Positions 2,395-50,258 of a stretch of DNA of 64,000 bases are shown piece after piece. This DNA is from Acidobacteriota bacterium. Lineage in GTDB: Bacteria > Acidobacteriota > Aminicenantia > Aminicenantales > Saccharicenantaceae. The translations under genes and the position numbers were made by a program. The first letter of the stretch is position 1; the number at the start of each line of letters is the position of its first letter. Location of the stretch: contig JAQURD010000010.1 in NCBI GenBank assembly GCA_028749115.1, positions 7,596 to 71,595 of the forward strand, written 5' to 3'. The notes under the pieces are model-generated. The model did no database searches, had not been told where the DNA came from, and worked only from the letters and a program-made list of their open reading frames with translations.

Positions 2395-3615
2395 ATGAGA
2401 ACTATTATTCTGGGCCATGGCCTGGCTGGAACTATGGCCGGCAAGACATTGAGGGAACTTGGATCTCCGGCTGAAATTATTATTATTGGTGAAGAAAAGT
2501 ATCCCTATTATCCGCGTCCAAATCTAATTGATTTCATAGCTGGTGATTTACCTCTGAACCGGATGTTTGCCTTTCCGCCGGATTGGGCGGAAAAACAGAA
2601 GATTCAGGTAAATTATGGCCGCAGGATTACCGGTCTCGATAAGGAGAAGATGGCAGTCGAGATTGATGGCCAGGAATGGATCAAAGGTGATAATTTAGTT
2701 TTAGCTACCGGGGCGGCTCCTCTTCTTCCGGGCATTCCGGGTGTAGAAAAAAAGGGGGTCTTCAGCCTCAGGACAATTGATGATGCACAATCTCTACTCG
2801 AGTTTCTGACGGCTGGGCCAGAGCCAGAAGTAGTTGTTCTGGGCGGAGGCTTGCTTGGACTGGAAATTGCCAGGGCTATCCTTAAAAGGGGTTTAAAAAC
2901 AGTAACAGTTGTTGAGTATTTTAACCGGCTTCTGCCCAGGCAACTGGATGAAACCGGTGCCCGGCTTCTTCGGGTGCAGCTCGAAAAGATGGGCCTGAAG
3001 TTTCTTCTGGGGAAAGAAGCGGCTGAAATAGAAGGTGAGGGGAAGGTCAGCCAGATAAAGTTTAAAGACGGCAGCCAGTTGCCGGCTGGAGCAATCATCG
3101 TTGCTGCTGGCGTTAAACCCAGGATAGAACTGGCTTTGAAGGCCGGCCTGAGTTGTAATCGCGGCCTTCTGGTTGATGATTACCTGCAAACAAGCCAGGC
3201 GGGGATTTATGCTGCCGGTGATGTGGCTGAACACCGGGGGCGTATTTATGGTCTGATACCGGCTGCTTTTGACCAGGCCAGAACTGTGGCTTATAACCTG
3301 GCCGGACAGGAGAAAAAATATGAGGGCACAGTCCCGGCTAATACGCTTAAAGTGGCAGGTGTTTTCCTGACAACGGCTGGCCTGATTTTACCTGAAGGGG
3401 AAGGCTTTGAGATTCTGTCCAGGCTGGATGAAGAACAGGGCGTTTATAAAAAACTTGTTTTTAAAGACAACCAACTGGTTGGAGCTATCTGGCTGGGCGT
3501 TAAGAAGGGAGGCCAGGAAATCAGCCGTCTGGTTCAAGCCAGGAAAGATCCCGGCCAATATAAATCTAATTTACTGGCTGATAATTTTGATTTTTCCAGA
3601 TTAAACAATTTATAG
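2395..3615 (+). CDS. FAD-dependent pyridine nucleotide-disulfide oxidoreductase, NADH:rubredoxin oxidoreductase-like
   Basis: N-terminal GxGxxG (ILGHGLAGTMAG) and a second dinucleotide fold (VVLGGGLLGLE); lies immediately downstream of rubredoxin. Confidence 0.75.
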   Translation: MRTIILGHGLAGTMAGKTLRELGSPAEIIIIGEEKYPYYPRPNLIDFIAGDLPLNRMFAFPPDWAEKQKIQVNYGRRITGLDKEKMAVEIDGQEWIKGDNLVLATGAAPLLPGIPGVEKKGVFSLRTIDDAQSLLEFLTAGPEPEVVVLGGGLLGLEIARAILKRGLKTVTVVEYFNRLLPRQLDETGARLLRVQLEKMGLKFLLGKEAAEIEGEGKVSQIKFKDGSQLPAGAIIVAAGVKPRIELALKAGLSCNRGLLVDDYLQTSQAGIYAAGDVAEHRGRIYGLIPAAFDQARTVAYNLAGQEKKYEGTVPANTLKVAGVFLTTAGLILPEGEGFEILSRLDEEQGVYKKLVFKDNQLVGAIWLGVKKGGQEISRLVQARKDPGQYKSNLLADNFDFSRLNNL

Positions 3616-3650
3616 TCATTTAAGCTGATTAGAAGTGAAAGGAGATTACT

Positions 3651-4679
3651 ATGAGAGTGCCTAAAACTGTTCTCGTCTTGATGTTTATCTTGTTTCTTGC
3701 CGTTTCTCTGCCAGCCCAGCTTAAGTTTAATGGTTATTTTTCTTATGAATATTTAAAAAGCCAGAAAGATGGCTTCTATCCTACCGGCACTTTTGACAAT
3801 CTTAATGGTGGGATGCTTCTCTCCGGATCAATTTCTGGCCCGCTAACCTTTAAACTGGAAGCCCTTTTTGACCAGGATGAAAAATTTGATCTGCATCAGG
3901 CTTATATAAATCTGCAAGTCAGCGAAGCCTTTATTTTTAAAATCGGCCGGTTTGAAGTGCCTTTCGGCCATTATAACCTTTACGCCCAGCCGGATAAAAA
4001 CGAAACTGTTTTCCGGCCATTGCCTTTTCACTTTTTCCCTTATCGCTGGGCAGATATTGGCTTTGCCTGGGAAGGAAATTACCACCATTCTATCTACTAT
4101 TCAGTTTATGCTATCAACGGACTGTCGGTTGATGATGATGGCTATCTTGAAACCCCGGCTACCGATATTAATAAAAACAAAGGTCTGGGCGGCCGGCTGG
4201 CCCTGAGAGTGGGCGAGGGGTTTGAAGCGGGCGGGTCATTTTATAGTGGAAGATATGACACCTCCAACTCAAAAAATATCAGATTTGAGGGATTCGATCT
4301 CACCTGGGTAACTACTGGCTGGGAAATCAAGGGTGAGTATGTCAGAACAGAAGTGAAGCATCCTTTTTTAAATGAGACACTCGACTTCGACGGTTACTAC
4401 TTTACAGTGGCTATTATTTTTAGAAACTTTAAGCCTTATTTCAGCTATCAATATTCGATGTTGCCCAACTCGCGCCTGGACGATGAACATGCCCCGCCTT
4501 TAAATGTACTGATTGAAACGATGGTCAAGAAGGATAGAAAAGCCATAGGTTGCAAGTTTGATTTTTTAGAAAATTTTTATGCCAAATTCGAATTTGACTG
4601 GAATAAGGAAAAAAGTCTTGATGGCCCATCTCAGTTAAAAGATAATGCCTATTCTATTCAAATCGGATTTGTTTTCTGA
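3651..4679 (+). CDS. secreted protein, probable outer-membrane beta-barrel (porin-like)
   Basis: Signal peptide MRVPKTVLVLMFILFLAVSLPAQ; aromatic-rich alternating pattern; C-terminal ...IQIGFVF ending in Phe. Confidence 0.45.
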   Translation: MRVPKTVLVLMFILFLAVSLPAQLKFNGYFSYEYLKSQKDGFYPTGTFDNLNGGMLLSGSISGPLTFKLEALFDQDEKFDLHQAYINLQVSEAFIFKIGRFEVPFGHYNLYAQPDKNETVFRPLPFHFFPYRWADIGFAWEGNYHHSIYYSVYAINGLSVDDDGYLETPATDINKNKGLGGRLALRVGEGFEAGGSFYSGRYDTSNSKNIRFEGFDLTWVTTGWEIKGEYVRTEVKHPFLNETLDFDGYYFTVAIIFRNFKPYFSYQYSMLPNSRLDDEHAPPLNVLIETMVKKDRKAIGCKFDFLENFYAKFEFDWNKEKSLDGPSQLKDNAYSIQIGFVF

Positions 4680-37628: not shown

Positions 37629-38660
37629 ATGAACAAAATATTTCCAATAAATGTTAATCTCGTATTTCAGCCTCTTAAGGTTATGTTTACAACATTTAAG
37701 ATAGTTTTTACTTGGTTATTGTGGCAATTGATGTGTATGTTTTGTTTTTTTTTCATACTGGTGTCATATAAGACATCTCTTTTGATGGCAAGCATATTAG
37801 CGTTTATTTTAACTCTGATTGTTTTAATTAAGATAGCAATTCACGAATACGGACATCTAGCCGTTGCGATTAGTGAAAATAAAGGATTGGTTTCATTAAA
37901 CCTCAGAAGAGGAGGGCCTTTAGGTTTCACTGTTTGCTATTCATATTGTCCACCCTTAAATCTTTCCAGCCGGGCGGCATTCTATATGAGCGGTCCGGCT
38001 CTTTCTCTTATTTTTGATCCGGTACTATTTTGCTTGGGAGCGCTTCTTTTAAGCGAGACTATGCTTAGGCCAGGATTGTTGACGTGGAGCAATAAGTTAA
38101 TTATATTAGGTATAATTTTTGTTGTGCCGATTTTTCAAATCATACTGTCTTATGTGATATCAAAGCCATCACAGGAGGGAGGAGACTACAGCAGGTTAAA
38201 AATGCTTAATCTTATGGGTTTACCGCCAGTAAAATTTAACGATTTAATCTCGGTTTTAATAAGCATTATCAATTATACGAGAGGGAAAGGAACAATCAAT
38301 ATAAAAAAGTTGTTAGAATTGAAACCTGTTTTTAATTTTCCTTATAATATCGAAGATCAAAAAACCATAAAAATTAATTTAGATAGTACAAATCATTTTT
38401 ATATTAGGGGAAAGGAAGCGGAAGTTGGAAGGAAAATAACTGGTACACATTCTATAAGCGAAATAATAAAAGACAGCGGTAGTGACAATGAAATATTAGA
38501 AATAATAATAAAATTTTATATGTGTTATATTGTGTCAATACCGCCTATATATTCAAAAATATCACCAGAGGATTTAATTCCATTCAAGATTGACTTTATT
38601 GAATTCTATAAGAAAATGATAGCAAAATATTTTAGTTCGAGTTTCTATTTTTCTGGATGA
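37629..38660 (+). CDS. polytopic membrane protein with TM-embedded HExxH, a putative intramembrane zinc metalloprotease (S2P/M50-like)
   Basis: LIKIAIHEYGHLAVAIS inside a hydrophobic helix; many TM segments; AT-rich codon usage like the rest of the island. Confidence 0.4.
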   Translation: MNKIFPINVNLVFQPLKVMFTTFKIVFTWLLWQLMCMFCFFFILVSYKTSLLMASILAFILTLIVLIKIAIHEYGHLAVAISENKGLVSLNLRRGGPLGFTVCYSYCPPLNLSSRAAFYMSGPALSLIFDPVLFCLGALLLSETMLRPGLLTWSNKLIILGIIFVVPIFQIILSYVISKPSQEGGDYSRLKMLNLMGLPPVKFNDLISVLISIINYTRGKGTINIKKLLELKPVFNFPYNIEDQKTIKINLDSTNHFYIRGKEAEVGRKITGTHSISEIIKDSGSDNEILEIIIKFYMCYIVSIPPIYSKISPEDLIPFKIDFIEFYKKMIAKYFSSSFYFSG

Positions 38661-39006: not shown

Positions 39007-39201
39007 ATGGACGAAAGAGAAGAGCTAATATATGAATCACCTTTAGCAATTACAGCAAATGATGTGTTTCTATTTTCAGTCGAAGCGGGAAGTGAGGCTG
39101 CGGCAGTGGCCGTTGTGGCTGTCGTGGCGGTAGTGGCTGTTGTTGCTGTTGTTGCCGTTGTGGCTGTTGTTGCCACTGTTGCAGTACCGGCGGCATACTA
39201 G
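39007..39201 (+). CDS. candidate RiPP precursor peptide: 33-aa leader plus (V-V-A)n hydrophobic repeat core
   Basis: MDEREELIYESPLAITANDVFLFSVEAGSEAAA | VAVVAVVAVVAVVAVVAVVAVVATVAVPAAY. SD AAGGAGG 5 nt upstream. Immediately upstream of an RRE-rSAM gene on the same strand; hairpin terminator just downstream. Confidence 0.7.
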   Translation: MDEREELIYESPLAITANDVFLFSVEAGSEAAAVAVVAVVAVVAVVAVVAVVAVVATVAVPAAY

Positions 39202-39364: not shown

Positions 39365-41107
39365 ATGTTTGATGACACGAAATTGGGTTTGGGCAATAAT
39401 GTCAGTGGCAATTTTTTGGCATTAACTCCAGTTCCCTTACGAGAAGCATCTTGGTATTTTGATGAAAAAACAGGTCGTGTTGTTATTTTAGTTTACCCTA
39501 AAAGGCTAATATTAGGAAAAGCTCAGTCTATGATTTGGAAACATGTTGATGGATTCAATACTGTTAATGATATAGCCAGTATTTTACATCATGATATGGA
39601 TATTAATGTTATCAGGGCAGCATTTAAAGAATTTGAATACAAAAACATAGCAAGAATGAAAGATATTAAAAATTCTTTTTGGGGTGATATCTCCGATAAT
39701 AATAAAAAGATAGACATAATTGAAGATCCAATGGGTTCTGATACTGGTGCTGATTTGATTTTGATAGTGCCTCCACAGTCTATAAGGTGTTTTTCGCTTG
39801 GAGCGATCAGCCTAGCACCTCCATTAGGATTGATGTATATCGCTTCAAATTTAATTTTAAATGGATATAAGGTTAAGATATTAGATCTAAGTGACAAGAC
39901 AAAACTTTCAAAAGATAGTTTTCATGATTATCTTGACAAAAACAGGCCAAAAGCTGTTGGAATTACTTGTTGGTCTGAATTTATGGAAAATGCTTTAGAA
40001 TTAGCCAAAACAACCAAAGAATATAATCCTGAAATAGCTGTCATCTTAGGCGGTCCACATGTTACCTTCATGGCTGACGAATGTTTTAAAGAAAATGATT
40101 ATGTTGACGTAGTTTGCCGGCATGAAGGTGAATACAGTATGATAGAGTTAATGGATTTCTATAAATGGAAAAAGGGTTCTTTGCAAGATATTTTAGGCAT
40201 AACATATCGTGAGCAGAAAACAGGTTCTGTCGTACGTAATCGAAGTAGAGCCTTTATAAAAGAATTAGATGAATTACCATTTCCAGCCCGCCATCTGATA
40301 GATTTCTCAAAGTATACAAAGCCTATGTTTATGATCACTAGCAGAGGCTGCACAGGTAAATGTAAATTTTGTGCAGGGACTACAATGGGGAGACGATATA
40401 GATTTAGACATCCTGATAAGGTTGCACAAGAAATAGAAGAGATAATTAGAGATTATAAACCAGAGGAGATTTATATTGTAGATGATGCCTTTACTATTAT
40501 TCCTGATCGTGCAAAAGAGATCTGCGCTTACTTAAAAAACTCGGATATAAGATGGTTCTGTGAATCACGAGTTGATGCTGTAAACGAAGAATTACTAAGG
40601 ATATTTTATGAATCTGGCTGTAGATATATTCAATTCGGAATAGAATCTGGCTCTCAACAGATTTTAGATGCTATCAAAAAGGAAACGACTTTAACAGAGG
40701 TCGAAAATGCCGTTAAATGTGCAACTGAAGCTGGCATCAAAGTAGCTTGTTCTTTCATAATAGGACACTTCGATGATACAGATGAAACAATTCAAGAAAC
40801 AATTGCACTAATGAAATATTTAAAAGACAAATATAATGTGGCTTTATTTTGTGGCCCGAATGTCATATTTCCTGGCACGTATCAGTATGCACATAGAGAG
40901 TCTTTAGGATTAGACTTTCAACTAAAATCTTGGAGTGCCAATATAATGGGGCATACAGTTACGCCAACTAAGTACCTTTCATATGAAAAACTTAGACGTT
41001 ATGTATTTGAAGCAATTGAATTATGTATGCCGACAGTCATTGATCTTGCTAAAGAGAAGAATCGTGAATTATATGGTAGTGAATGGCCAGATCGATTGGG
41101 TAGGTAA
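39365..41107 (+). CDS. B12-binding-domain radical SAM enzyme with N-terminal PqqD-like RiPP recognition element (RRE)
   Basis: N-terminal ~100 aa PqqD-like (IWKHVDGFNTVNDIASIL); cobalamin-binding-type Rossmann domain; radical SAM CTGKCKFC (CxxxCxxC) within ITSRGCTGKCKFCAG. Confidence 0.85.
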   Translation: MFDDTKLGLGNNVSGNFLALTPVPLREASWYFDEKTGRVVILVYPKRLILGKAQSMIWKHVDGFNTVNDIASILHHDMDINVIRAAFKEFEYKNIARMKDIKNSFWGDISDNNKKIDIIEDPMGSDTGADLILIVPPQSIRCFSLGAISLAPPLGLMYIASNLILNGYKVKILDLSDKTKLSKDSFHDYLDKNRPKAVGITCWSEFMENALELAKTTKEYNPEIAVILGGPHVTFMADECFKENDYVDVVCRHEGEYSMIELMDFYKWKKGSLQDILGITYREQKTGSVVRNRSRAFIKELDELPFPARHLIDFSKYTKPMFMITSRGCTGKCKFCAGTTMGRRYRFRHPDKVAQEIEEIIRDYKPEEIYIVDDAFTIIPDRAKEICAYLKNSDIRWFCESRVDAVNEELLRIFYESGCRYIQFGIESGSQQILDAIKKETTLTEVENAVKCATEAGIKVACSFIIGHFDDTDETIQETIALMKYLKDKYNVALFCGPNVIFPGTYQYAHRESLGLDFQLKSWSANIMGHTVTPTKYLSYEKLRRYVFEAIELCMPTVIDLAKEKNRELYGSEWPDRLGR

Positions 41108-41113
41108 GACGGT

Positions 41114-42035
41114 TTATGCTAATCCCCTGAGGATGGATAAGGCTCCTGGCAAGAGTGTCAGACGAAGATGTATTTTATAAATTTCAAAAAATGACAGAGA
41201 GAAGGAATAGTTTATAGACGGGAGCGTTTCCCATGTGCTGGGCAGCGCGATAAGACTCAAAATGACCTGATTAGGTTGGTCTACGTTCACCCCCTCCAGT
41301 AGATAAGGGTAAAGCTTATGACCAGGAGAGGAAAAACCTATCCTCCTATGGGGATAGATGGCCTGAAGTCCTAAACGTCTGAAAAGCTTCCTCACCCGCT
41401 TGGCATTTACCCCATAGCCCTGAGCCCTTAACCAGGCGGTCATCCTCCTTACCCCATAAAACGGTGTTCTGGTAAACTCTTCATCTATGAGCCTCATCAA
41501 CTCAAGATTACAGTCATCATTGACCACTGAGCTGTAATAGTATGAGGACCTCAGAAGATTTAATAGCTCACACTGCCGGACCACCGCTATCTCCTCGTTA
41601 TTCCTCTCCACCAACTGCCTCTTCTCCTCTACTGAAGCTGCCGAAATTTTTTTTTAAGCCAATCGTTCTCTACCTTGAGCTGCCCTATCTGCTGGTAAAG
41701 CTCCGCCTCCTTCTGGTCTCGTTCCTCATCTGTTCTCTTCCTCCGGTCCGAAAACAACTCAGGTAATGCATTCAGCAGATGTTCCTTCCATTGACTAACC
41801 TGGTTAGGATGAACCCCATACTCACTGGCTACCTGGGCAACAGTCTTCTCCCCTTTGACCGCCTCCAGCGCCACCCTGGCCTTAAAGGCCGCTTCATACT
41901 GTCGTCTTTTCATACTGGCCATTTTACCATACCTCCTCCAGAGTTATGGCAGGTCATTTCCCACCTTATTGCCCTGTCCAGTTTTTGGGGAGAACCTCAC
42001 CTAGTAGATCCTTGACAACTGTTCATTTGCTCATA
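41114..42035 (-). mobile_element. truncated IS3-family element (orfA intact, orfB 3'-truncated)
   Basis: orfA 41629..41922 (HTH, MASMKRRQYEAAFKARVALEAV...). A10 slippery run at ~41646-41656 typical of an IS3 -1 frameshift. orfB' 41114..41614 (...RRMTAWLRAQGYGVNAKRVRKLFRRLGL...) lacks the DDE integrase core. Putative left end TGAGCAAATGAAC (revcomp of 42021-42033). Confidence 0.65.
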
Positions 42036-42100
42036 CCTGCTTCTTCTAATGGCAAATTAGTGCTCTCTAATGAGACCAAAAGGTGCAGTCAAATATCAAC

Positions 42101-44224
42101 CTATAGAACTTTTTCACCTCTCTCTAATTTAAAGAAAACAAACCATACAAAAATTGCTACTATTGCCAATATTAGATCTAACGAGACAAGCCTCTTTAGC
42201 CATACTAAGGTTTCAGTTGAGTCAATAAGTTGTGCCAGAATACCCCTCTGAGCAATGCAGGCTGGGTTTAGCTTGAACAATATAGATGTATCAGGAATAT
42301 TTACCGCTCCTGAAATAGCCACAGGTAAGATTAGAAATAACTCTAGAACTGCTAATGTTATGCTTACTCCGGATGTTATGGAAGGGAAAATAATAATCGA
42401 TAGACAGCTAATAGATAATCCTAAAAGAACACATATTAATAAAAGTTTGCAGATCAGAAATATACTTATTTCAAAGCCACTAATAAAACTTATACCTATC
42501 ATCAGGGAGGCAACTACTATAGAGGCAAAAATAGCTGTTAACATGATACTTGTTAGAAAATCGAAATGGCTTAATGGAGTCAATCGTAAGGCATCTAATG
42601 TTTCCATCTGTTTCTCTTTAGCCATAACAGAAGATAGGCCCATACTGATAACCACTATTTGTATGACAATAAAAATCGTGAATAGAAAAAAACTTAAATT
42701 CATTCCTTTTATTTTCTTAAATATTAATGAGTATTTTCCTTTTTCTCCAGCTTCTTCTAAGATTATTCTTCTTATTATATTAGCTACAATAAAAGACTGT
42801 GGTTGCCTGGCGTCGTCCATAATTATTTCGATAAAGGGACTATTATCCCGGGAAGATATTAAGATTGCACTTAAGACTAGTTTTTTCTGAATCAGGGCTC
42901 TGGCCTCATTAACACTTTTCACCTGATGATAAGAATAAGGAGTTTTTTTAGTTAAGTTTATTAACACCTGGTTTGATAACTCATCATTAGTAGAATATAA
43001 TGCAACTTTGCTTCTCTCAAGATAAGGTAACTGCATATTTATTAATAAAACTATAGTTATAAATAGGAAAAAGAGCACAAGCACTAATATTATCTTAAAA
43101 CTTAGTAATTCCTTTATATTCTTCGAAACCATAGTTAGAACTCTATTTCTATATTTGAAATTTAACCTAACTGTTGGTATCCGGTGAAATTTTGGAATGA
43201 TCCTTTTGCTTGTAGCTGAGAAGGCACCTAAAATAAATTTAAATAGAAAGGCAGTGACTATTGTTCCAAAAAAGAAAAAAAACACAATATTCCAGCTCAG
43301 GCTTGATACATTTAAGAGTATTTGCTGAGATGCAGAAGATGGAAGGATGTAATTATATTTTGCAATCAATTCTAAACGATCAACAAACACGGAAGGTGTA
43401 ATAAAAATAATTGCTGCTATCGATGAATAAGTATATACAGAAATTGCAGTTCTGGCCGACATAGCAATTTCTAATCCTAGGTAAGCATAAAATATACTTA
43501 AGATTAAGAAAATCACTAAAGCTTTTAATTTATAGCTGAATGGTTCTTGTAAAAAGGATAATGATATAGAGATAACAGGTAATATTATTAATGCATAAAA
43601 TATCAATTTAGAGATTATTATTTGGATTTTCCTAGCACCACTCATGTTTATAGCATCCAGTAGTCCCTTATCTTTCTCGTAGATAATATTGTGAACAAAC
43701 ATATTCAGGCCTAAAAGTGGCAGCATGACCTGCAATAAGATTAGAAAAATACGTGTTGGGATTCTTACGCTCCTTAGGTTACTGATATAAATATTTATCG
43801 CTTTGCTTTTATCTTTAGAAATAGCCTCTGATATCAATGCCGATGATAGTTCTTGAACTATAGGATTATTATCACTGATAATTATTTGAAGGGCTGGTAA
43901 TCCGGATTCTCCTTTAATAAAATCTATTGCTGCTATTACTTGCCCTTTCATTATTAATTGTTCTGCTTTTGAAAAATCGCTTATTTCTATTATTTTAAAG
44001 GCGGGATATCGTTCTATTTCCTCAGCTATGGTCTTATGGACAGCTTGTTTAGATTGAACAATGGCTAGTGGGAATTTGTTTCCCTTAACATTGCCAAAAT
44101 AACTAAAAATTAAAAGGATAGATAAAGGAGACAATATTATAATAAAATTAAACTTATTTTTTAAAAATAATTTAATTTCTTTTTGTATTAAGAACAAAAT
44201 ATTCTTCATTATGTCTTTCACCAA
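42101..44224 (-). CDS. ABC-2 type transporter permease (large, two-module)
   Basis: Two blocks of ~6 TM helices separated by extracytoplasmic segments; the 53-nt overlap with the upstream ATPase gene suggests translational coupling. Confidence 0.7.
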   Translation of the reverse strand: MVKDIMKNILFLIQKEIKLFLKNKFNFIIILSPLSILLIFSYFGNVKGNKFPLAIVQSKQAVHKTIAEEIERYPAFKIIEISDFSKAEQLIMKGQVIAAIDFIKGESGLPALQIIISDNNPIVQELSSALISEAISKDKSKAINIYISNLRSVRIPTRIFLILLQVMLPLLGLNMFVHNIIYEKDKGLLDAINMSGARKIQIIISKLIFYALIILPVISISLSFLQEPFSYKLKALVIFLILSIFYAYLGLEIAMSARTAISVYTYSSIAAIIFITPSVFVDRLELIAKYNYILPSSASQQILLNVSSLSWNIVFFFFFGTIVTAFLFKFILGAFSATSKRIIPKFHRIPTVRLNFKYRNRVLTMVSKNIKELLSFKIILVLVLFFLFITIVLLINMQLPYLERSKVALYSTNDELSNQVLINLTKKTPYSYHQVKSVNEARALIQKKLVLSAILISSRDNSPFIEIIMDDARQPQSFIVANIIRRIILEEAGEKGKYSLIFKKIKGMNLSFFLFTIFIVIQIVVISMGLSSVMAKEKQMETLDALRLTPLSHFDFLTSIMLTAIFASIVVASLMIGISFISGFEISIFLICKLLLICVLLGLSISCLSIIIFPSITSGVSITLAVLELFLILPVAISGAVNIPDTSILFKLNPACIAQRGILAQLIDSTETLVWLKRLVSLDLILAIVAIFVWFVFFKLERGEKVL

Positions 44225-45128
44225 TTATCTTCATAAAAGCTTCTTGTAGAGAAGGTCTGACTTTTTCAATTGTTTTAATCTCGACGCCACTTTCCTTTAT
44301 GATGTCATTTAAAGACCCAATAAAAGAGACAATATCTGTCGAGACTTTATTAAAGGTTAAGACATCGCAGCTCTCATTTTCTAAAACACTAAATGAGCTA
44401 AACTGTTTAGGATTGATCCTGGCACTAAAACATACTCTATATAAGTTTTCAAGTGAAGCTTCAGAACATAATTGTTCAGTAGATCCACTAGCGGTTATTT
44501 TCCCATGATGAAGGATGGCTATCCTATTACACAATATTTCTGCCTCGTCAAGATAATGGGTGGTAATAAATATAGTTTTGCCCCGGTTATTCAAATTTGA
44601 TATCAATCTTCTTACAAATTGATCAGTTTGAGGATCTAGGCCAACCGTCGGTTCATCGAGGAAAAGAACTTCAGGATCGTGGATCAACGCTCTTCCTATA
44701 AGAAGTTTTTGTTTCATTCCTTTTGAATATTTATATACGTTTTCGTTTGCTCTGTCTTCCAATTTCATCAGTTTAAGCATATTTTCAGCAGATTGTTTGG
44801 GCTGAGGCAATCCATATAGCTGCGCAAACAAATATAGATTATAAAAACCTGAAAGGTTTTCATAAAGATTCTGATTTTCGAAAACTACACCGATAATTCT
44901 TTTTATACGTTTCTGGTATTTTTTTAGGTCAAGATTTCTAATCAGAATTTGCCCACTACTTGGCTCAATTAATCCACATAGCATTTTTAATATTGTGCTC
45001 TTACCTGCTCCATTTGGACCAAGCAACCCAAAAATTTCTCCTTCTTTCACACTTATACTTATATTGTCTACTGCTATCAATTCCCCATATTTCTTAGTGA
45101 TAGCCTTCATTTCAATTGCAGATTGCAT
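44172..45128 (-). CDS. ABC transporter ATP-binding protein
   Basis: Walker A GPNGAGKST, signature LSGGMKQK-like (YSKGMKQKLLIGRAL), Walker B LFLDEPT, H-loop. Confidence 0.9.
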   Translation of the reverse strand: MQSAIEMKAITKKYGELIAVDNISISVKEGEIFGLLGPNGAGKSTILKMLCGLIEPSSGQILIRNLDLKKYQKRIKRIIGVVFENQNLYENLSGFYNLYLFAQLYGLPQPKQSAENMLKLMKLEDRANENVYKYSKGMKQKLLIGRALIHDPEVLFLDEPTVGLDPQTDQFVRRLISNLNNRGKTIFITTHYLDEAEILCNRIAILHHGKITASGSTEQLCSEASLENLYRVCFSARINPKQFSSFSVLENESCDVLTFNKVSTDIVSFIGSLNDIIKESGVEIKTIEKVRPSLQEAFMKIIGERHNEEYFVLNTKRN

Positions 45129-45145
45129 TGATTATCCTCGCCTGC

Positions 45146-46492
45146 CTACTTACCTAGAGTCCACATTACTTCTTCTATAACATTCTTGTAACAGTCACAA
45201 CAAGGGTTATTTTCTGTCAATGAACCAAACTCCAGAGCCAAAACTCTACATCCGCCGCCGCAATAATATCTATACTCACAAGCTGAACAGTTCTTAAATT
45301 TATCAACTGTAACCTCTTGATAAATCTCAGAAGCTTTTTTATTTATTTCTGAAAAGTCTTCAACGTAAGTATTTCCAATTTTATATTTATGATCGTGTAA
45401 TAAAGGACATGGATATACTGAACCGTCTGGACTTATACTCAATGTATTTATGCCTAATCCGCAGTTTAGGTATTTATGAGTATTAAATGGAGAATACACC
45501 ATATCGCCAGCAGTCTTAAGCGTAATTTGAACTTTCTTTTTCTTTAGAAGAAATGAATAGAATAGTTCCCTGCTTTGTTGAAAAACGGAAATGAAATTAC
45601 ATCTTTTTGAAAAATCATTTGTTTCAGTTTCAATAGCCGGTATCAAGCACTTTATTTCTAAAGTACATTTACTATCATTTATAGGTTCAAGTATATTTGA
45701 GAGCTTAGATATATTTTGCTCATTTACCAGGGCGGAAATCAATATGCTTTTTAATCCAGCCTTCTTGAGCATTTTGACATTTTCGATAGCCAAATCCACT
45801 GATGAAGAATTTTCTATTTCAATATTGATTTGAATACTTTTAAAACAAGATACTAATATGTTGGCCATATCAATCCCAATAGGAGCTGAGTCTAAAATAA
45901 GATTTAGAGGATTGGTGGCTATTTTCATACAGTCAATTAAATGTTCTTTTTGTAATGTTTCTAAATCGGAGGATATTAATAACTGGGTTAATTGATAATT
46001 ATTTAACTGGTGAAATAGCCTAGCTAACTCGTCAGATGTCATAATATGTTCTGATTCTTCCGAATCGTTGCATGCATAGCCATATTGACATTGACGATAT
46101 GATAATTTTTTTAAATGGATCCATACAAATTTCAAATCAACAATACCTGGCATCGGCGCTGTTTTATCGCCAATTATTCGAGCGTCTTTTGCCTTTTCTA
46201 AAAATGTTCTTACATCTTCTTCAATCAATCGTGCAGGAACATCCCAGCACTTAGCTATTTTATCAACTATTTCTGTAAATAGAGGATTTTCAAAATAAGA
46301 TTTGATTATGTCCATTCCAACACGGTTAGATCTCATCCAACCCATATGCTTCCCGTTAACTATTAGGTACTCATTTCCTTTCTTTTTAATATTGAGGTCA
46401 GAAGATAAATTAAAATTAAGTTTTTCAATTTTAGGTTTACCTTTTAATTGGTTAGGACTCTCCATATGCTTATTCTCCTTCTCTTGAATCAA
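45146..46492 (-). CDS. RRE-containing SPASM-domain radical-SAM-like peptide maturase (non-canonical cluster motif)
   Basis: N-terminal PqqD-like RRE (YLIVNGKHMGWMRSNRVGMDIIKSYFENPLF...). C-terminal SPASM Cys array (CGLGINTLSISPDGSVYPC ... CSACEYRYYCGGGC ... CC). Where CxxxCxxC is expected, the sequence reads SYRQCQYGYACNDS (Cx5C only). Confidence 0.7.
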   Translation of the reverse strand: MIQEKENKHMESPNQLKGKPKIEKLNFNLSSDLNIKKKGNEYLIVNGKHMGWMRSNRVGMDIIKSYFENPLFTEIVDKIAKCWDVPARLIEEDVRTFLEKAKDARIIGDKTAPMPGIVDLKFVWIHLKKLSYRQCQYGYACNDSEESEHIMTSDELARLFHQLNNYQLTQLLISSDLETLQKEHLIDCMKIATNPLNLILDSAPIGIDMANILVSCFKSIQINIEIENSSSVDLAIENVKMLKKAGLKSILISALVNEQNISKLSNILEPINDSKCTLEIKCLIPAIETETNDFSKRCNFISVFQQSRELFYSFLLKKKKVQITLKTAGDMVYSPFNTHKYLNCGLGINTLSISPDGSVYPCPLLHDHKYKIGNTYVEDFSEINKKASEIYQEVTVDKFKNCSACEYRYYCGGGCRVLALEFGSLTENNPCCDCYKNVIEEVMWTLGK

Positions 46493-47342
46493 AACACGTT
46501 TCCCGTTATAAAATAGGGAATTTAACTACACAAAGTTTTTATTCAACATTTACATGAAGAGCAATGGTATCGATTGCTCGATATTTCATCATCATTTGGA
46601 AAAATTCCTACGATTAGCATTATTCTGCATACTTTTCAAATTTTTTTCTGCTTGAAGAAGCATGAAACTAGATAGAGGATATATTGCCTTACAGCTCAGC
46701 ACCTGGCCTTCTATCTTAAATGCCGTTATAGCCTCCTGCCTAAAATACATAACTATCCTTGCTACCGCCTCTACTTTGTTTGTCCCAACATCCATTTTTT
46801 ATAGTTCATGCTTAGCCATTATGCTAAGGACCCTCAGCTTGGCGGCCTCTATAGCTATGAATGCAAAGCCTATATATTCCTCTTATACCTTGACTTACAA
46901 CAAAGCCACACCATTGGCTATAATTTCTTCTAATAGTGATTTATATATTAGTTCTTCTTTTTTGCCCGTAGTTACCTCCTTATTTTAGCTGCAAGAGTCA
47001 AGCTAATATTCATGAGACTTAATGTCAATCAAATTGATATCTTTTTTTTTTCGTTTTGGTATGGTTTTTTTCGTTTCTTATAAATTCAGATTCGGCATAA
47101 ATCCATGTCTTTAGCGCAAAATAATAATAAAAAGACTATTTTCCCCCCACCCTTACTATTCGGAAGATTCCACTGCAAATTAGCTAGCCATTCTGAGGGG
47201 AAGGCAGCAGCTTTTAGCGCAGTGATTGGAATAAGTGGCCAGGATGGGTTAGAAGCATAGCGGTGTGTTGGGTAATCTCAGATGGAAGGGGTATTTTAAA
47301 CCTCTGAGGAATAGAAATTATACTGAATAAGGAGGCGTCAGG

Positions 47343-47621
47343 ATGAAGCTAAGGAAATGGAGTTCAGAGGAGAAGATGGCGATTGTGCTGGAGGGGTTAA
47401 AGGGGAAAAAATCGGTGGCTGAGATATGTCGGGAACATCAGATAAGCCAGGCATTGTATTATCGGTGGCGGGACAGGTTTTTGGAGGCTGGTCAGAAGGG
47501 GTTAAGCAATGGGGGCAGTGAGGATGAGACGAAGGCGCTTCAAACCCAGATAGAGAAACTGGAGAAGATAATAGGGCGACAGACGATTGCCATCGAGGCT
47601 TTAAAAAAACTCAAGAGTTAA
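47343..47621 (+). CDS. IS3-family transposase OrfA (second, unrelated copy); downstream orfB reduced to a ~100-nt fragment
   Basis: MKLRKWSSEEKMAIVLEGLKGKKSVAEICREHQISQALYYRWRDRF... (HTH_Tnp_1-like). 47640-47710 encodes an OrfB N-terminal fragment (...LREEGMSLKSACEALKISLSW) and then decays. Confidence 0.7.
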   Translation: MKLRKWSSEEKMAIVLEGLKGKKSVAEICREHQISQALYYRWRDRFLEAGQKGLSNGGSEDETKALQTQIEKLEKIIGRQTIAIEALKKLKS

Positions 47622-48632: not shown

Positions 48633-48740
48633 CCCAGTTTTAAGGTGTATTTTTATCATTATACGGCTGCATATATAGACAAGTCGGTATACAGCAATCA
48701 GCTAATTGACAATCAGGAGGGTTCCTTTTATCTTAAAGGC

Positions 48741-50258
48741 ATGAAAATTATTCTGGCTGGATATAACTTTGATTCGGAAGTCATCGAGGAACTCAAGAAA
48801 AATTCACCGGAGAGGCAGGATATCACACCTGAAACCGTCTCGGCTGCCTATGCCCGCATTTCGCGCGACCCACGACCGGTTAATGAACTCAGAGCTGTAG
48901 CCAGAGCCGAGGTGGAGAGGGCCCGCCGCTCGAATCAAAATATCATCTTCAAAATGGGCCATCATTCGGTGGCCGAGCATGCTGTCTTCAATTTTGACCT
49001 CATTGGATTGAGCCGCCTGGCCATCGAGGAGGTCGAGCATTTCCGCCTCTGTTCCTACACCGAAAAATCCCAGCGCTACATCACCCTTGACGGCGATTAT
49101 GTTTTACCGGAGGAAATAAAACAGGCCGGGCCAGAATTGGAGGAACTTTTTGTCGAGACAATTGAAGCCCAGAATGAAGCCTATCGCTATTTTTATAGAC
49201 GGCTGCGGGAGCATTTTTTTAAAAAATACGAGAAGCAGGCTGCTAATCCTAAAAACGAGCCAATTCTTGATGGCTGGGCTAAAGAAGATGCCCGTTATGT
49301 GGTAGGTCTGGCGACCAAAGGGCAGCTGGGACTGACGGCCAATGCTCGCAATCTGGAACTGATCATCAGGCGTCTCGCTGCTAAGAAAAATGCCGAGCTG
49401 CAAGAGCTAAGACGCCAGCTCTATGAACTGGCCAAGAAAGTGGCGCCATCCATTATTCTTTTTACCGAGGCTTCACCTTATGAAGCCGAAATGATGGCCA
49501 GTGTTGGCCGGGAAGCTCAGTGTCTTCTGGCTAAAGAAAAAAGTGCTCGGAAACAGGCAGCTAGATCAGCCTTAAAAGAGATTGAACTGGCAGAATATTC
49601 TGAAAATGGCGATGAACTCATTCTGGCCGGATTGCTCTTTTCGACGGCTGGTTTGTCCTACAAAGAAGCTCTAAAGAAAGTTAGCCGCTTCAGCCAGCAG
49701 CAAAAGCTTGAGCTGGTGAAGCGCGTCTTTGAGAATATGGAATTTTATGATGTTCCCCCACGGGAATTCGAGCTGGCCGGGCTGACCTATGATCTGATCG
49801 TTTCCGCTTCCTGCTTTGCCCAGCTTAAACGTCATAGAATGATGACGCTGCTGGCTCAGCCTTATGACCCGGCTCTGAGTGTGACGGTTCCGCCTTCCAT
49901 CAAAGAAATAAAAGAACAGAAAAAATTTATGGAAATAATCAGAAAAACAGATAAAACCTGGCAGATTCTTAAGAAGGGAGTCGGACCGGCCGCTGATTAT
50001 ATTCTGACCAATGCTCATCGCCGGCGGGTAACCGTCAAAGCCTGCGTCAGAGAGCTTTATCATCTGTCGAGGCTGCGGGAAGATGCCACGGCTCAGTGGG
50101 AGATAAGGCAAGTCTCGGCCGGGATGTCAGCACTGGCAAAAAAAGTTTTCCCGGTGACGGCCAGGCTGCTGGGTGGCAAAGACAGTTATCCCCGGCTTTA
50201 CAAAAAGCTATTTGACCGACTGCCTAAAATGCAACCTCCGCCTTTATTCTTTGACTGA
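48741..50258 (+). CDS. tandem ThyX-like (flavin-dependent thymidylate synthase fold) protein with divergent active-site motifs; alternative start 48645
   Basis: First half carries ...HFRLCSYTEKSQRYI (ThyX RHR...SxRY region, but RHR reads HFR). Second half carries KRHRMMT without a following S..RY. About twice the normal ThyX length. Confidence 0.5.
   Translation: MKIILAGYNFDSEVIEELKKNSPERQDITPETVSAAYARISRDPRPVNELRAVARAEVERARRSNQNIIFKMGHHSVAEHAVFNFDLIGLSRLAIEEVEHFRLCSYTEKSQRYITLDGDYVLPEEIKQAGPELEELFVETIEAQNEAYRYFYRRLREHFFKKYEKQAANPKNEPILDGWAKEDARYVVGLATKGQLGLTANARNLELIIRRLAAKKNAELQELRRQLYELAKKVAPSIILFTEASPYEAEMMASVGREAQCLLAKEKSARKQAARSALKEIELAEYSENGDELILAGLLFSTAGLSYKEALKKVSRFSQQQKLELVKRVFENMEFYDVPPREFELAGLTYDLIVSASCFAQLKRHRMMTLLAQPYDPALSVTVPPSIKEIKEQKKFMEIIRKTDKTWQILKKGVGPAADYILTNAHRRRVTVKACVRELYHLSRLREDATAQWEIRQVSAGMSALAKKVFPVTARLLGGKDSYPRLYKKLFDRLPKMQPPPLFFD

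What the first reader, a model, noticed from the sequence alone, without database searches (positions are those of the whole stretch)
45146..46492. Second RRE-bearing SPASM protein whose radical-SAM cysteine triad appears degenerate (Cx5C)
The protein has a clear PqqD-like N-terminus and a full seven-Cys SPASM array. At the position where CxxxCxxC is expected it reads SYRQCQYGYACNDS, with two Cys spaced Cx5C and no third Cys nearby. It is either a non-canonical cluster-binding variant or a catalytically dead scaffold that retains auxiliary clusters and peptide binding. Both would be unusual for RiPP maturases.
Basis: seen in the sequence. Interest (0 to 1): 0.7.

Follow-up and report, generated by a model that had tools for sequence, protein, structure and literature searches.

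The report
Radical-SAM-dead RRE–SPASM peptide-maturase relative
This gene encodes a peptide-maturase look-alike that keeps its peptide-docking domain and its two auxiliary iron-sulfur cluster sites but has lost the radical-SAM catalytic site, and the same loss has occurred independently at least three times in one uncharacterised family of peptide gene clusters.

Summary
ORF 45146..46492 (-) encodes a 448-aa protein with a PqqD/RRE domain, a complete 7-Cys SPASM domain, and no CxxxCxxC.

Alignment to its nearest relatives (all canonical) refines the reading. The triad columns read S131-x3-C135-x2-G138, so only the middle Cys survives. C141 is an extra residue. The GGE, TNGT, SxDG and PxGRG motifs are also gone, and PF04055 does not match. 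An independent assembly is 100% identical.

Divergence is confined to the rSAM core: identity to canonical relatives is about 0.6 of normal there, against about 1.0 for the RRE and SPASM. In a neutral-decay simulation the ORF almost never stayed stop-free.

The gene belongs to a conserved, uncurated RiPP cluster family: precursor, RRE, B12-rSAM, RRE-rSAM-SPASM and an ABC exporter, plus an M50-like protein in two loci. Two other members (L040, L067) lost the triad independently while their B12-rSAM stayed intact. The window's precursor, with a (VAV)n core, has no Cys. All nine canonical clusters have a Cys in the core.

Best reading: a SAM-cleavage-dead pseudoenzyme kept as a leader-binding, Fe-S accessory protein. 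Curated pseudo-SAM/SPASM families already exist, so this is a new variant rather than a new kind.

The parts
45146..46492 (-). RRE / degenerate rSAM core / SPASM protein (448 aa; NCBI start Met10 at 46465)
   Evidence: ORF list. Identical to P0001 'SPASM domain-containing protein [Acidobacteriota bacterium]'. AF2 model pLDDT 84.9, pTM 0.84.
46163..46405 (-). RRE (PqqD-like) domain, residues ~30-110
   Evidence: PF05402 26.6 bits, above the 23.4 cutoff. Three strands and three helices predicted at pLDDT >90. Identity to canonical relatives is 0.93-1.09 of the canonical-canonical value.
45488..46138 (-). Degenerate radical-SAM partial TIM-barrel core, residues 119-335
   Evidence: No Pfam hit at E<=10. 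Six barrel strands are still predicted. Identity to canonical relatives is only 0.54-0.68 of normal.
46070..46111 (-). Remnant of the RS-cluster loop, residues 128-141 (K-K-L-S131-Y-R-Q-C135-Q-Y-G138-Y-A-C141)
   Evidence: Alignments. Codons are TCA (S131), TGT (C135), GGC (G138) and TGC (C141). Local pLDDT is 52-62.
45158..45475 (-). SPASM domain with all seven Cys (C344, C362, C402, C405, C411, C415, C432) plus extra C431 and C434
   Evidence: PF13186 and TIGR04085 both above cutoff. These columns are invariant. Conservation ratio 1.05-1.08.
44172..45128 (-). ABC transporter ATPase; its start lies 17 nt past the stop of the SPASM gene
   Evidence: PF00005 E 6.6e-34. The same SPASM-to-ABC adjacency is seen in relative L006 and, a few genes downstream, in L040.
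42101..44224 (-). ABC-2 type permease (fused double module, 707 aa)
   Evidence: PF12698, two matched stretches.
46895..46969 (-). Pseudo-copy of the precursor leader: an AAGGAGG ribosome-binding site (46975-46981), then ACG in place of ATG, then 'TGKKEELIYKSLLEEIIANGVALL' ended by TAA where the real precursor has TCA
   Evidence: Sequence. DNA alignment to 39007... Local alignment score 35 against shuffles of 8.8 +/- 1.3, max 14.
39007..39201 (+). Precursor peptide: leader MDEREELIYESP...VEAGS, core (VAV)n, no Cys
   Evidence: ORF. The leader motif is shared with precursors in L003, L004, L006 and L009. 9-bp tandem repeat.
39365..41107 (+). B12-binding radical SAM enzyme with a fused N-terminal RRE and an intact CTGKCKFC motif
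   Evidence: PF02310 and PF04055. 46% identity to the B12-rSAM beside P0014. The cluster-family RRE profile hits residues 16-109 at E 2.7e-32, but this N-terminus was itself in that profile; the independent match is phmmer with the L003 RRE, E 9e-06.
37629..38660 (+). M50-like HExxH membrane protein with a possible C-terminal RRE-like domain
   Evidence: Weak PF02163 match. Homologous to L006_336 and L003_298, E about 1e-11. hhalign to the RRE profile gives prob 74%, E 2.8e-5.
41114..41922 (-). IS3-family transposase remnant (OrfA plus truncated OrfB) separating the two halves of the cluster
   Evidence: Called IS3-like from the ORF translations by eye, not by a profile search. The independent Logan contig ends next to it at 41963.
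47343..47621 (+). Second IS3-type OrfA fragment bounding the SPASM-ABC segment
   Evidence: Called IS3-like from the ORF translation by eye, not by a profile search. The Logan contig ends at 47347.

Best explanation
The protein descends from a canonical RRE-rSAM-SPASM peptide maturase. It has lost the SAM-binding [4Fe-4S] site and therefore 5'-deoxyadenosyl radical chemistry. It remains under selection for its leader-binding RRE and its two auxiliary-cluster sites.

It sits in a rearranged copy of a conserved RiPP cluster: precursor, RRE, B12-rSAM, RRE-rSAM-SPASM and ABC exporter, with an M50-like protein in some members. The intact B12-rSAM is the working modifier of a Cys-free (VAV)n precursor.

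The ancestral job of the SPASM enzyme was probably a Cys-dependent cross-link. That job became obsolete when the core lost its Cys. The protein persists as a non-catalytic accessory. It binds the precursor leader through the RRE and most likely holds the peptide for, or hands it between, the B12-rSAM and the co-transcribed ABC exporter. Its auxiliary clusters may also serve as a redox relay.

Shown: motif loss, domain-specific conservation, cluster homology and recurrence of the loss. Inferred: no SAM cleavage, cluster occupancy, leader binding and the accessory role.
For: 1. Catalytic site lost.
- The triad columns read S131/C135/G138.
- GGE, TNGT, SxDG and PxGRG are all lost, and 11 aa are deleted after strand 4.
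- PF04055 gives no match even at E<=10.

2. Not an artefact.
- An independent Logan assembly is 100% identical over 5385 bp.
- Restoring the motifs would need many substitutions. S131 is TCA, two changes away from a Cys codon.

3. Selection continues.
- RRE and SPASM identity to canonical relatives equals the canonical-canonical level (ratios 1.09 and 1.08). The core is at 0.54-0.68.
- In a neutral simulation, 20% amino-acid change left the core stop-free in <1% of runs.
- The AF2 model is confident (pLDDT 84.9) and keeps the RRE, barrel and SPASM. The best PDB matches are CteB, SuiB and TigE.

4. Cluster homology.
- The nearest relatives P0014, P0162 and P0165 (canonical, 25-31% identity) lie in the order precursor, RRE, B12-rSAM, SPASM enzyme, with ABC genes and an M50-like protein following in L006.
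- The B12-rSAMs are 46% identical.

5. Recurrence.
- L040 and L067 lost the triad independently. Each has a canonical nearest neighbour.
- Both sit directly beside an intact B12-rSAM with precursors upstream; L040 also keeps ABC transporter genes just downstream.
- Both show the same decay pattern: core 0.44-0.77, RRE and SPASM 0.89-1.01.
- In the GTDB sample, dead forms occur in 2 of 11 B12-paired loci and 0 of 64 others. A hand calculation from these counts gives p about 0.02.

6. Substrate correlation.
- 9 of 9 canonical clusters have at least one Cys in the core.
- The window precursor (EAGS where L003 has EAGC) and all three L040 cores have none.

7. A redox-relay role is plausible. PapB auxiliary clusters mediate intermolecular electron transfer (PMC10470005).
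Against: - There is no biochemical evidence. Cluster content, SAM cleavage and leader binding are all inferred.
- Only one sequence of this exact lineage exists; the next relative is 31% identical. dN/dS therefore cannot be computed.
- The surroundings look decayed. There are IS3 fragments on both sides, the cluster is split and inverted, and the gene's own upstream precursor copy is a pseudogene. This fits an eroding locus.
- L067 breaks the Cys correlation: it has a dead enzyme and one Cys in its core. The correlation rests on 12 clusters; a hand calculation gives p about 0.045.
- Every cluster in the family already has a separate RRE for the B12 enzyme. The RRE of the dead protein is therefore not obviously needed.
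- The AF2 fold is driven by an alignment of canonical enzymes, so it is weak evidence for fold retention.
Confidence: 0.62

Rival explanations
1. Eroding relic. The gene is a maturase on its way to becoming a pseudogene in an IS-disrupted, horizontally acquired island. It is still open but does nothing useful.
For: - The island has low GC (0.32-0.34, against 0.44-0.49 through most of the first 34 kb of the window) and is bounded or interrupted by IS3 fragments.
- The cluster is split into two convergent halves.
- The leader copy just upstream of the gene has ATG changed to ACG and a premature TAA.
- The only intact precursor lacks the Cys that all nine canonical relatives keep.
- No close relative exists in 1.84 billion representatives.
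Against: - The 448-codon ORF is intact in a core that is about 69% A+T. Simulated neutral change of only 20% of core residues left it stop-free in <1% of runs.
- Decay is restricted to the rSAM core, while the RRE and SPASM stay at canonical conservation.
- The same state recurs independently in L040 and L067, each next to an intact B12-rSAM and its precursors.
- The downstream ABC genes are intact and tightly linked.
Confidence: 0.2
2. Non-canonical but active radical SAM enzyme. C135 and C141 plus a third ligand from elsewhere (for example C282 at the end of strand 6, or a non-Cys residue) still hold a SAM-cleaving cluster.
For: - Two Cys remain in the loop, and the Glu of GGE is kept as E178.
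- From my own knowledge, the superfamily tolerates other spacings or remote ligands (ThiC CX2CX4C, HmdB CX5CX2C, Dph2). This was not tested here.
Against: - Both glycines of GGE, the TNGT and SxDG motifs and the strand-6 motif are lost, and 11 residues are deleted.
- The core has no detectable PF04055 similarity.
- The loop is predicted with low confidence.
- The other RS-dead relatives (P0139, P0154, L040, L067) have no pair of Cys in the equivalent loop, so the recurrent trend is loss rather than rewiring.
- No Cys outside the loop is conserved with relatives, apart from the SPASM set.
Confidence: 0.08
3. Sequencing or assembly error in the cluster-binding loop of an otherwise normal maturase.
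For: The source is a metagenome-assembled genome, and only one lineage is known.
Against: - A separately assembled contig from run SRR22315506 is 100% identical over 5385 bp.
- The defects are spread over dozens of codons in frame.
- S131 (TCA) needs two substitutions to become Cys.
Confidence: 0.01

Closest known systems
CteB (SCIFF thioether maturase, PDB 5WGG/5WHY) and other RRE-rSAM-SPASM RiPP maturases (SuiB, TigE, SkfB)
   Same: Same three-part architecture in the same register: query 206-444 aligns to CteB 204-447. CteB is the best structural match (Foldseek E 2.9e-15), and TigE gives TM 0.70. The 7-Cys SPASM is complete, with no eighth Cys just upstream.
   Different: The target has no CxxxCxxC, no GGE and no PF04055 match. 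Its precursor has no Cys to cross-link. It lacks the Gly-Tyr-Trp motif that defines cyclopropyl synthases such as TigE (sequence; motif from PMC10878394).
NCBIfam TIGR04347 'pseudo-SAM/SPASM protein' and TIGR04304 'GeoRSP system SPASM domain protein'
   Same: By their curated names and descriptions, both are SPASM-bearing families whose radical-SAM part is described as pseudo or is not named. I did not inspect their sequences. That is the same kind of protein as the target.
   Different: The target scores 14.8 bits against a cutoff of 525 and 37 bits against a cutoff of 300, so it belongs to neither family. Its nearest relatives are canonical enzymes, so the loss is independent. It carries an RRE and is paired with a B12-rSAM.
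P0014 of Pelotomaculum schinkii (annotated 'AlbA') and its cluster, with P0162 and P0165
   Same: Closest homologues: 25-31% identity over the full length, 0.40 on RRE+SPASM columns. The cluster is homologous: a precursor with the same (L/K)IYxxP...EAG leader, an RRE, a B12-rSAM (46% identity), ABC genes and an M50-like protein.
   Different: These enzymes keep CNLKCxYC and GGEP, and their precursors keep a Cys at the leader/core junction. None has been characterised experimentally, as far as the held literature shows.
Stand-alone PqqD/RRE peptide chaperones (PqqD, MftB, WgkC-type)
   Same: This is the role I propose the protein works like: non-catalytic leader binding that presents a peptide to a radical SAM partner. 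The best NCBIfam match of the N-terminus is the PqqD-family chaperone WgkC (E 1.7e-4).
   Different: The target is a 448-aa three-domain protein that also keeps two auxiliary-cluster sites. Every cluster in this family already has a separate small or fused RRE.

Membership tests
Radical SAM superfamily (PF04055) | CxxxCxxC (or a variant three-Cys motif) after strand 1 that binds the SAM-cleaving [4Fe-4S] cluster | tested here: not met
   The aligned columns read S131, C135 and G138. C141 is the only other Cys in the loop.
Radical SAM superfamily (PF04055) | GGE motif and the other SAM-binding motifs (ribose motif TNG/SxDG, strand-6 motif) | tested here: not met
   SSD(L)E replaces GGE, LDSAP replaces TNGT, the SxDG..H..R segment is deleted, and PAIETE replaces PxGRG.
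Radical SAM superfamily (PF04055) | Profile match above the gathering score | tested here: not met
   No PF04055 hit at E<=0.01 on the whole protein or at E<=10 on residues 119-331.
Radical SAM superfamily (PF04055) | Partial (beta/alpha)6 TIM-barrel fold | tested here: inconclusive
   AF2 predicts six strand-helix units at high pLDDT, and Foldseek hits rSAM-SPASM structures. However, the model was driven by an alignment of canonical enzymes.
Radical SAM superfamily (PF04055) | Reductive cleavage of SAM to 5'-deoxyadenosine | not testable with these tools
   Needs purified, reconstituted protein.
SPASM domain (PF13186 / TIGR04085) | Seven-Cys motif Cx9-15Gx4C ... Cx2Cx5Cx3C ... C and a profile score above cutoff | tested here: met
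   C344, G357, C362, C402, C405, C411, C415 and C432 are present. PF13186 scores 34 bits (cutoff 21.5) and TIGR04085 56.7 bits (cutoff 27).
RRE / PqqD (PF05402) | Profile match above cutoff and a three-strand, three-helix winged-helix topology | tested here: met
   PF05402 scores 26.6 bits (cutoff 23.4) at residues 42-107. The model has E33-38, E41-46, E51-56, H57-68, H72-82 and H87-103 at pLDDT >90. Actual leader binding was not tested.
TIGR04347 pseudo-SAM/SPASM protein family | Equivalog score of at least 525 bits | tested here: not met
   14.8-16.1 bits on the N-terminal part. The family is not among the top 25 for the whole protein.
TIGR04304 GeoRSP system SPASM domain protein | Equivalog score of at least 300 bits | tested here: not met
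   37 bits, covering the SPASM region only.
Thioether-forming sacti-/ranthipeptide maturases (CteB/ScfB TIGR03974, PapB NF047865, StsB NF045574) | Equivalog score above cutoff, an active RS cluster and a Cys-containing substrate core | tested here: not met
   Scores are 42.7, 43.1 and 41.9 bits against cutoffs of 425, 340 and 625. The RS motif is absent. The cluster's precursor has no Cys.
Radical SAM cyclopropyl synthases (TvgB/TigE family) | Gly-Tyr-Trp motif that supplies a Tyr ligand to auxiliary cluster I (PMC10878394) | tested here: not met
   There is no GYW in the sequence. TigE is only a structural neighbour.

The most novel reading that the evidence does not exclude
The RS-dead RRE-SPASM protein is not a passive leftover. 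It would be a dedicated subunit of the B12-radical-SAM machinery. Its RRE would hold the precursor leader, and its two auxiliary [4Fe-4S] clusters would relay electrons to the cobalamin enzyme, which has no auxiliary clusters of its own, or would gate hand-over to the ABC exporter. That would be the first radical-SAM pseudoenzyme with a defined non-catalytic role. It would also explain why the loss recurs specifically in B12-paired clusters.
Probability: 0.2. Interest if true: 0.75.

Novelty: new variant of a known kind. Interest (0 to 1): 0.55.

Why it matters
Auxiliary clusters and RRE domains of rSAM-SPASM maturases are normally studied only as helpers of radical chemistry. This case is a natural separation-of-function variant: the radical site is gone, but the RRE and both auxiliary-cluster sites are conserved at normal levels. 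The same outcome arose three times in one cluster family, always beside an intact B12-rSAM.

If the protein is functional, it offers a direct way to ask what SPASM clusters and fused RREs do apart from catalysis, such as electron relay, peptide chaperoning or coupling to export.

The work also flags an apparently uncharacterised, phylum-spanning RiPP family with V/A/I-rich cores. In that family, loss of the core Cys and loss of the cross-linking enzyme's active site appear to go together.

Tried and rejected
- Word-indexed homologue search with the target found only 13 hits and no full-length relatives. The exhaustive phmmer search was needed.
- A profile search with five RS-dead proteins recovered only P0139. 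The contexts of P0053, P0134 and P0154 could therefore not be read.
- Promoter and terminator scans of 41.9-47.4 kb were at chance level: 22 promoter-like sites against 24 +/- 4.8 expected. Nothing can be said about transcription.
- Cyclopropyl synthase was rejected: TigE is a good structural match, but there is no GYW motif.
- Membership of the curated pseudo-SAM/SPASM or GeoRSP families was rejected on score.
- NCBIfam gave no family above cutoff for any of the eight precursors tested.
- The idea that the dead protein supplies the RRE for an RRE-less B12-rSAM was rejected. Every cluster in the family has a separate or fused RRE.
- Six literature searches for radical-SAM/SPASM pseudoenzymes found nothing relevant; one was swamped by 'pseudo-sample'. 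Haft & Basu 2011 is not held.
- Cys-Cys distances in the AF2 model could not be measured because coordinates are not exposed.
- The 67-aa ORF at 46592..46795 (-), between the pseudo-leader and the gene, has no Pfam hit on record and looked neither like a precursor nor like an RRE by eye. It was left unassigned.
Full report
**Observation.** The ORF at 45146..46492 (-) is real: 448 aa from a TTG start, or 439 aa from Met10 as in the public record P0001, 'SPASM domain-containing protein [Acidobacteriota bacterium]'. It contains SYRQCQYGYACNDS, with C135 and C141. Pfam finds PqqD at 42-107 and SPASM at 344-405, both above their gathering scores. TIGR04085 scores 56.7 bits against a cutoff of 27. 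PF04055 is not found on the whole protein, nor at E<=10 on the isolated core, residues 119-331. This is the only SPASM protein in the window. The other RRE-bearing enzyme is a B12-rSAM.

**What the loop really is.** An exhaustive phmmer search of 1.84 billion representatives gave 3034 hits. The nearest full-length relatives (P0014-P0021, 25-31% identity, E 1e-42 to 1e-28) all carry CNLxCxxC and GGEP. Against them, the three Cys columns of the target read S131, C135 and G138, with no gap. Only the middle Cys survives, and C141 sits three residues beyond the third position. The damage is general. GGE has become SSD(L)E, and TNGT has become LDSAP. The SxDG..H..R segment after strand 4 is deleted, and PxGRG has become PAIETE. 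All seven SPASM cysteines are in invariant columns.

**Not an artefact.** A contig assembled independently from run SRR22315506 matches window 41963..47347 at 100% over 5385 bp. S131 is TCA, two changes from a Cys codon. The other defects are spread over many in-frame codons.

**What is kept.** Identity was measured by domain.
- RRE: target to canonical relatives 0.237, against a canonical-canonical value of 0.217.
- SPASM: 0.380 against 0.351.
- N-terminal half of the core: 0.190 against 0.351.
- C-terminal half of the core: 0.169 against 0.249.

Divergence is therefore confined to the radical-SAM core. A simulation of neutral substitution on the core, which is about 69% A+T, left it stop-free in <1% of runs after only 20% amino-acid change. 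The open 448-codon frame argues for continued selection. AF2, run with a 69-sequence alignment, gives pLDDT 84.9 and pTM 0.84. It predicts a three-strand, three-helix RRE, six barrel strands and the SPASM. The former cluster loop is at pLDDT 52-62. The best PDB matches are CteB, SuiB, TigE, SkfB and anSME. Because the alignment was made of canonical enzymes, the fold result is only supportive.

**Context in the window.** The gene lies in a low-GC island (0.32-0.34). On the plus strand, in order:
- an M50-like HExxH membrane protein (37629..38660);
- a precursor (39007..39201) with leader MDEREELIYESP...VEAGS and a (VAV)n core encoded by a 9-bp tandem repeat;
- an RRE-fused B12-rSAM with an intact CTGKCKFC (39365..41107).

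An IS3 remnant follows. On the minus strand lie the target, an ABC ATPase starting 17 nt past the target's stop, and a fused ABC-2 permease. This segment is bounded by a second IS3 fragment.

About 400 nt upstream of the target is a decayed copy of the precursor leader. It has an AAGGAGG ribosome-binding site, ACG where ATG should be, the peptide 'TGKKEELIYKSLLEEIIANGVALL', and a TAA where the real gene has TCA. Its local alignment score is 35, against 8.8 +/- 1.3 for shuffles.

**The family.** The closest relatives sit in homologous clusters in Pelotomaculum schinkii (L003), a Deltaproteobacteria MAG (L004) and a metagenome contig (L006). The gene order is precursor, stand-alone RRE, B12-rSAM, RRE-rSAM-SPASM. 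In L006 this is followed by an ABC ATPase, an ABC-2 permease and an M50-like protein. The B12 enzymes are 46% identical. The leaders share an (L/K/V)IYxxP motif, and L003 reads ...EFEAGC where the window reads ...VEAGS. A GTDB scan added more B12-paired loci: L009, L010, L013, L016, L020, L023, L029, L040 and L067. NCBIfam places none of the eight precursors tested above a family cutoff. I found no paper on this family, but I made no search aimed specifically at it.

**Recurrent loss.** In L040 (Tissierellales) the SPASM partner has lost all three Cys but keeps GGE. In L067 (Fermentibacteraceae) both are gone. On RRE+SPASM columns each dead protein is closest to a canonical one: window to L003 at 0.40, L040 to L023 at 0.45, L067 to L013 at 0.39. 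That indicates three independent losses.

All three show the same pattern. The core is at 0.44-0.77 of canonical conservation, the RRE at 0.93-1.01 and the SPASM at 0.89-1.05. All B12 partners keep CxxxCxxC. L040 otherwise looks complete, with three precursors, B12-rSAM, RRE, ABC genes and two further large ORFs I did not identify. In the GTDB sample the dead state occurs in 2 of 11 B12-paired loci and 0 of 64 others. A hand calculation from these counts gives p of about 0.02.

Four further RS-dead full-length representatives exist elsewhere (P0053, P0134, P0139, P0154). In all, 5 of 116 top representatives are RS-dead. P0139 sits beside Cys-rich precursors, an ABC exporter and an S8 peptidase, with no active rSAM within 8 kb.

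**Substrate correlation.** All nine canonical clusters with an identifiable precursor have at least one Cys in the core. The window's precursor and all three L040 cores have none. L067 has one. The sample is small; a hand calculation gives p of about 0.045, so this is suggestive only. It fits an ancestral Cys-dependent cross-link that became obsolete.

**Mechanism (inferred).** The protein can no longer bind the RS cluster or SAM, so it cannot make a 5'-deoxyadenosyl radical. It most likely still binds the precursor leader through its RRE and still holds two auxiliary [4Fe-4S] clusters. I propose that it is an accessory to the B12-rSAM pathway, acting as a peptide holder or hand-over factor to the co-transcribed exporter. 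It might also act as an electron relay, by analogy with intermolecular electron transfer through PapB auxiliary clusters (PMC10470005). Every cluster in the family already has a separate RRE, so simple 'RRE donation' is not the explanation.

**Rivals.**
- Eroding relic (0.2). The IS fragments, the pseudo-leader and the Cys-free precursor support it. The open frame, the domain-specific conservation and the recurrence beside intact B12-rSAMs count against it.
- Non-canonical active enzyme (0.08). Two loop Cys and E178 remain, and I could not measure 3D distances. However, every SAM motif is lost, and the sister cases have no pair of Cys in the loop.
- Sequencing or assembly error (0.01).

**Comparison and novelty.** The architecture and fold are those of CteB-type RRE-rSAM-SPASM maturases. 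All equivalog scores are far below cutoff, and two defining features fail: the RS motif and a Cys-containing substrate. It is not a cyclopropyl synthase, because it lacks the GYW motif (PMC10878394). Curated 'pseudo-SAM/SPASM' (TIGR04347) and 'GeoRSP SPASM domain' (TIGR04304) families show that the kind is known to annotators. The target scores 14.8 against 525 and 37 against 300, and arose independently. Searches of the held literature found no study of such pseudoenzymes. I rate it a new variant of a known kind, of moderate interest.

**Limits.** Everything functional is inferred from sequence. There is a single sequence for this lineage, and the samples behind the two enrichment tests are small. 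The AF2 coordinates could not be inspected.

Noticed in passing
window 39007-39201 (+); repeat 39106-39170: The precursor peptide core is almost pure (VAV)n: AAAVAVVAVVAVVAVVAVVAVVAVVATVAVPAAY. It is encoded by a 9-bp tandem repeat (7.2 copies, 82% matches), has no Cys, and lies next to a B12-rSAM. It is a candidate for poly-C-methylated or otherwise modified valines. The product is unknown.
   Followed up: partly
window 46895-46981 (-): A pseudogenised second copy of the precursor leader lies directly upstream of the SPASM gene. The ribosome-binding site is kept, ATG has become ACG, TCA has become TAA, and the core is unrecognisable. This suggests the SPASM-ABC segment came from a second, partly deleted copy of the cluster.
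   Followed up: yes
L003, L004/L008, L006, L009, L010, L013, L016, L020, L023, L029, L040, L067 and window 37.6-47.0 kb: An apparently uncurated RiPP cluster family spans Bacillota, Desulfobacterota, Chloroflexota, Acidobacteriota and others. The short leader has a hydrophobic-Tyr/Phe-x-x-Pro type motif near the N-terminus, and the core is rich in A/V/I/G, usually with one Cys. The clusters also encode a separate RRE, a B12-rSAM, an RRE-rSAM-SPASM and usually an ABC exporter. No NCBIfam precursor model matches above cutoff.
   Followed up: partly
window 37629-38660 (+): An M50-like HExxH polytopic membrane protein is conserved in the cluster family (L006_336, L003_298; E about 1e-11). Its C-terminal ~80 residues resemble the family's RRE (hhalign prob 74%, E 2.8e-5), although Pfam finds nothing there. 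It may be a leader peptidase with its own recognition domain.
   Followed up: partly
L002 (Logan SRR32175933), genes at 259-441, 673-852 and 2941-4254: Another RS-dead RRE-like/SPASM protein (P0139) is the only maturase-like gene in an 8-kb contig. It sits beside two Cys/Thr/Ser-rich precursors (...CLSCTACTGCTWSCTTCG...), an ABC exporter and an S8 peptidase.
   Followed up: partly
window 45190-45201 (-), residues 431-434: The last SPASM cysteine (C432) is embedded in C-C-D-C. Relatives have a single Cys there (DPxC). The two extra cysteines are unique to this protein and are unexplained.
   Followed up: no
window 41114-41922 (-) and 47343-47621 (+); GC profile 38-46 kb: Two different IS3-type fragments bracket the SPASM-ABC segment. 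The independent Logan contig breaks at or next to them. GC falls to 0.32-0.34 here, against 0.44-0.49 through most of the first 34 kb of the window. The region looks like a horizontally acquired, rearranged island.
   Followed up: partly
window 42101-44224 (-): The ABC-2 permease is a 707-aa fusion of two modules. L006 has a single 347-aa permease and L040 has two separate ~380-aa genes. It overlaps the ATPase ORF by 53 nt as listed, so the true start is probably later.
   Followed up: no
window 48645-50258 (+): The ThyX-like protein is unusually long (537 aa), with two matched stretches of the Thy1 profile. It may be an internally duplicated flavin-dependent thymidylate synthase.
   Followed up: no
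window 46592-46795 (-): A 67-aa ORF lies between the pseudo-leader and the SPASM gene. It was called as a gene in the Logan contig and has no Pfam hit on record. By eye it resembles neither a precursor nor an RRE. It is unassigned.
   Followed up: no
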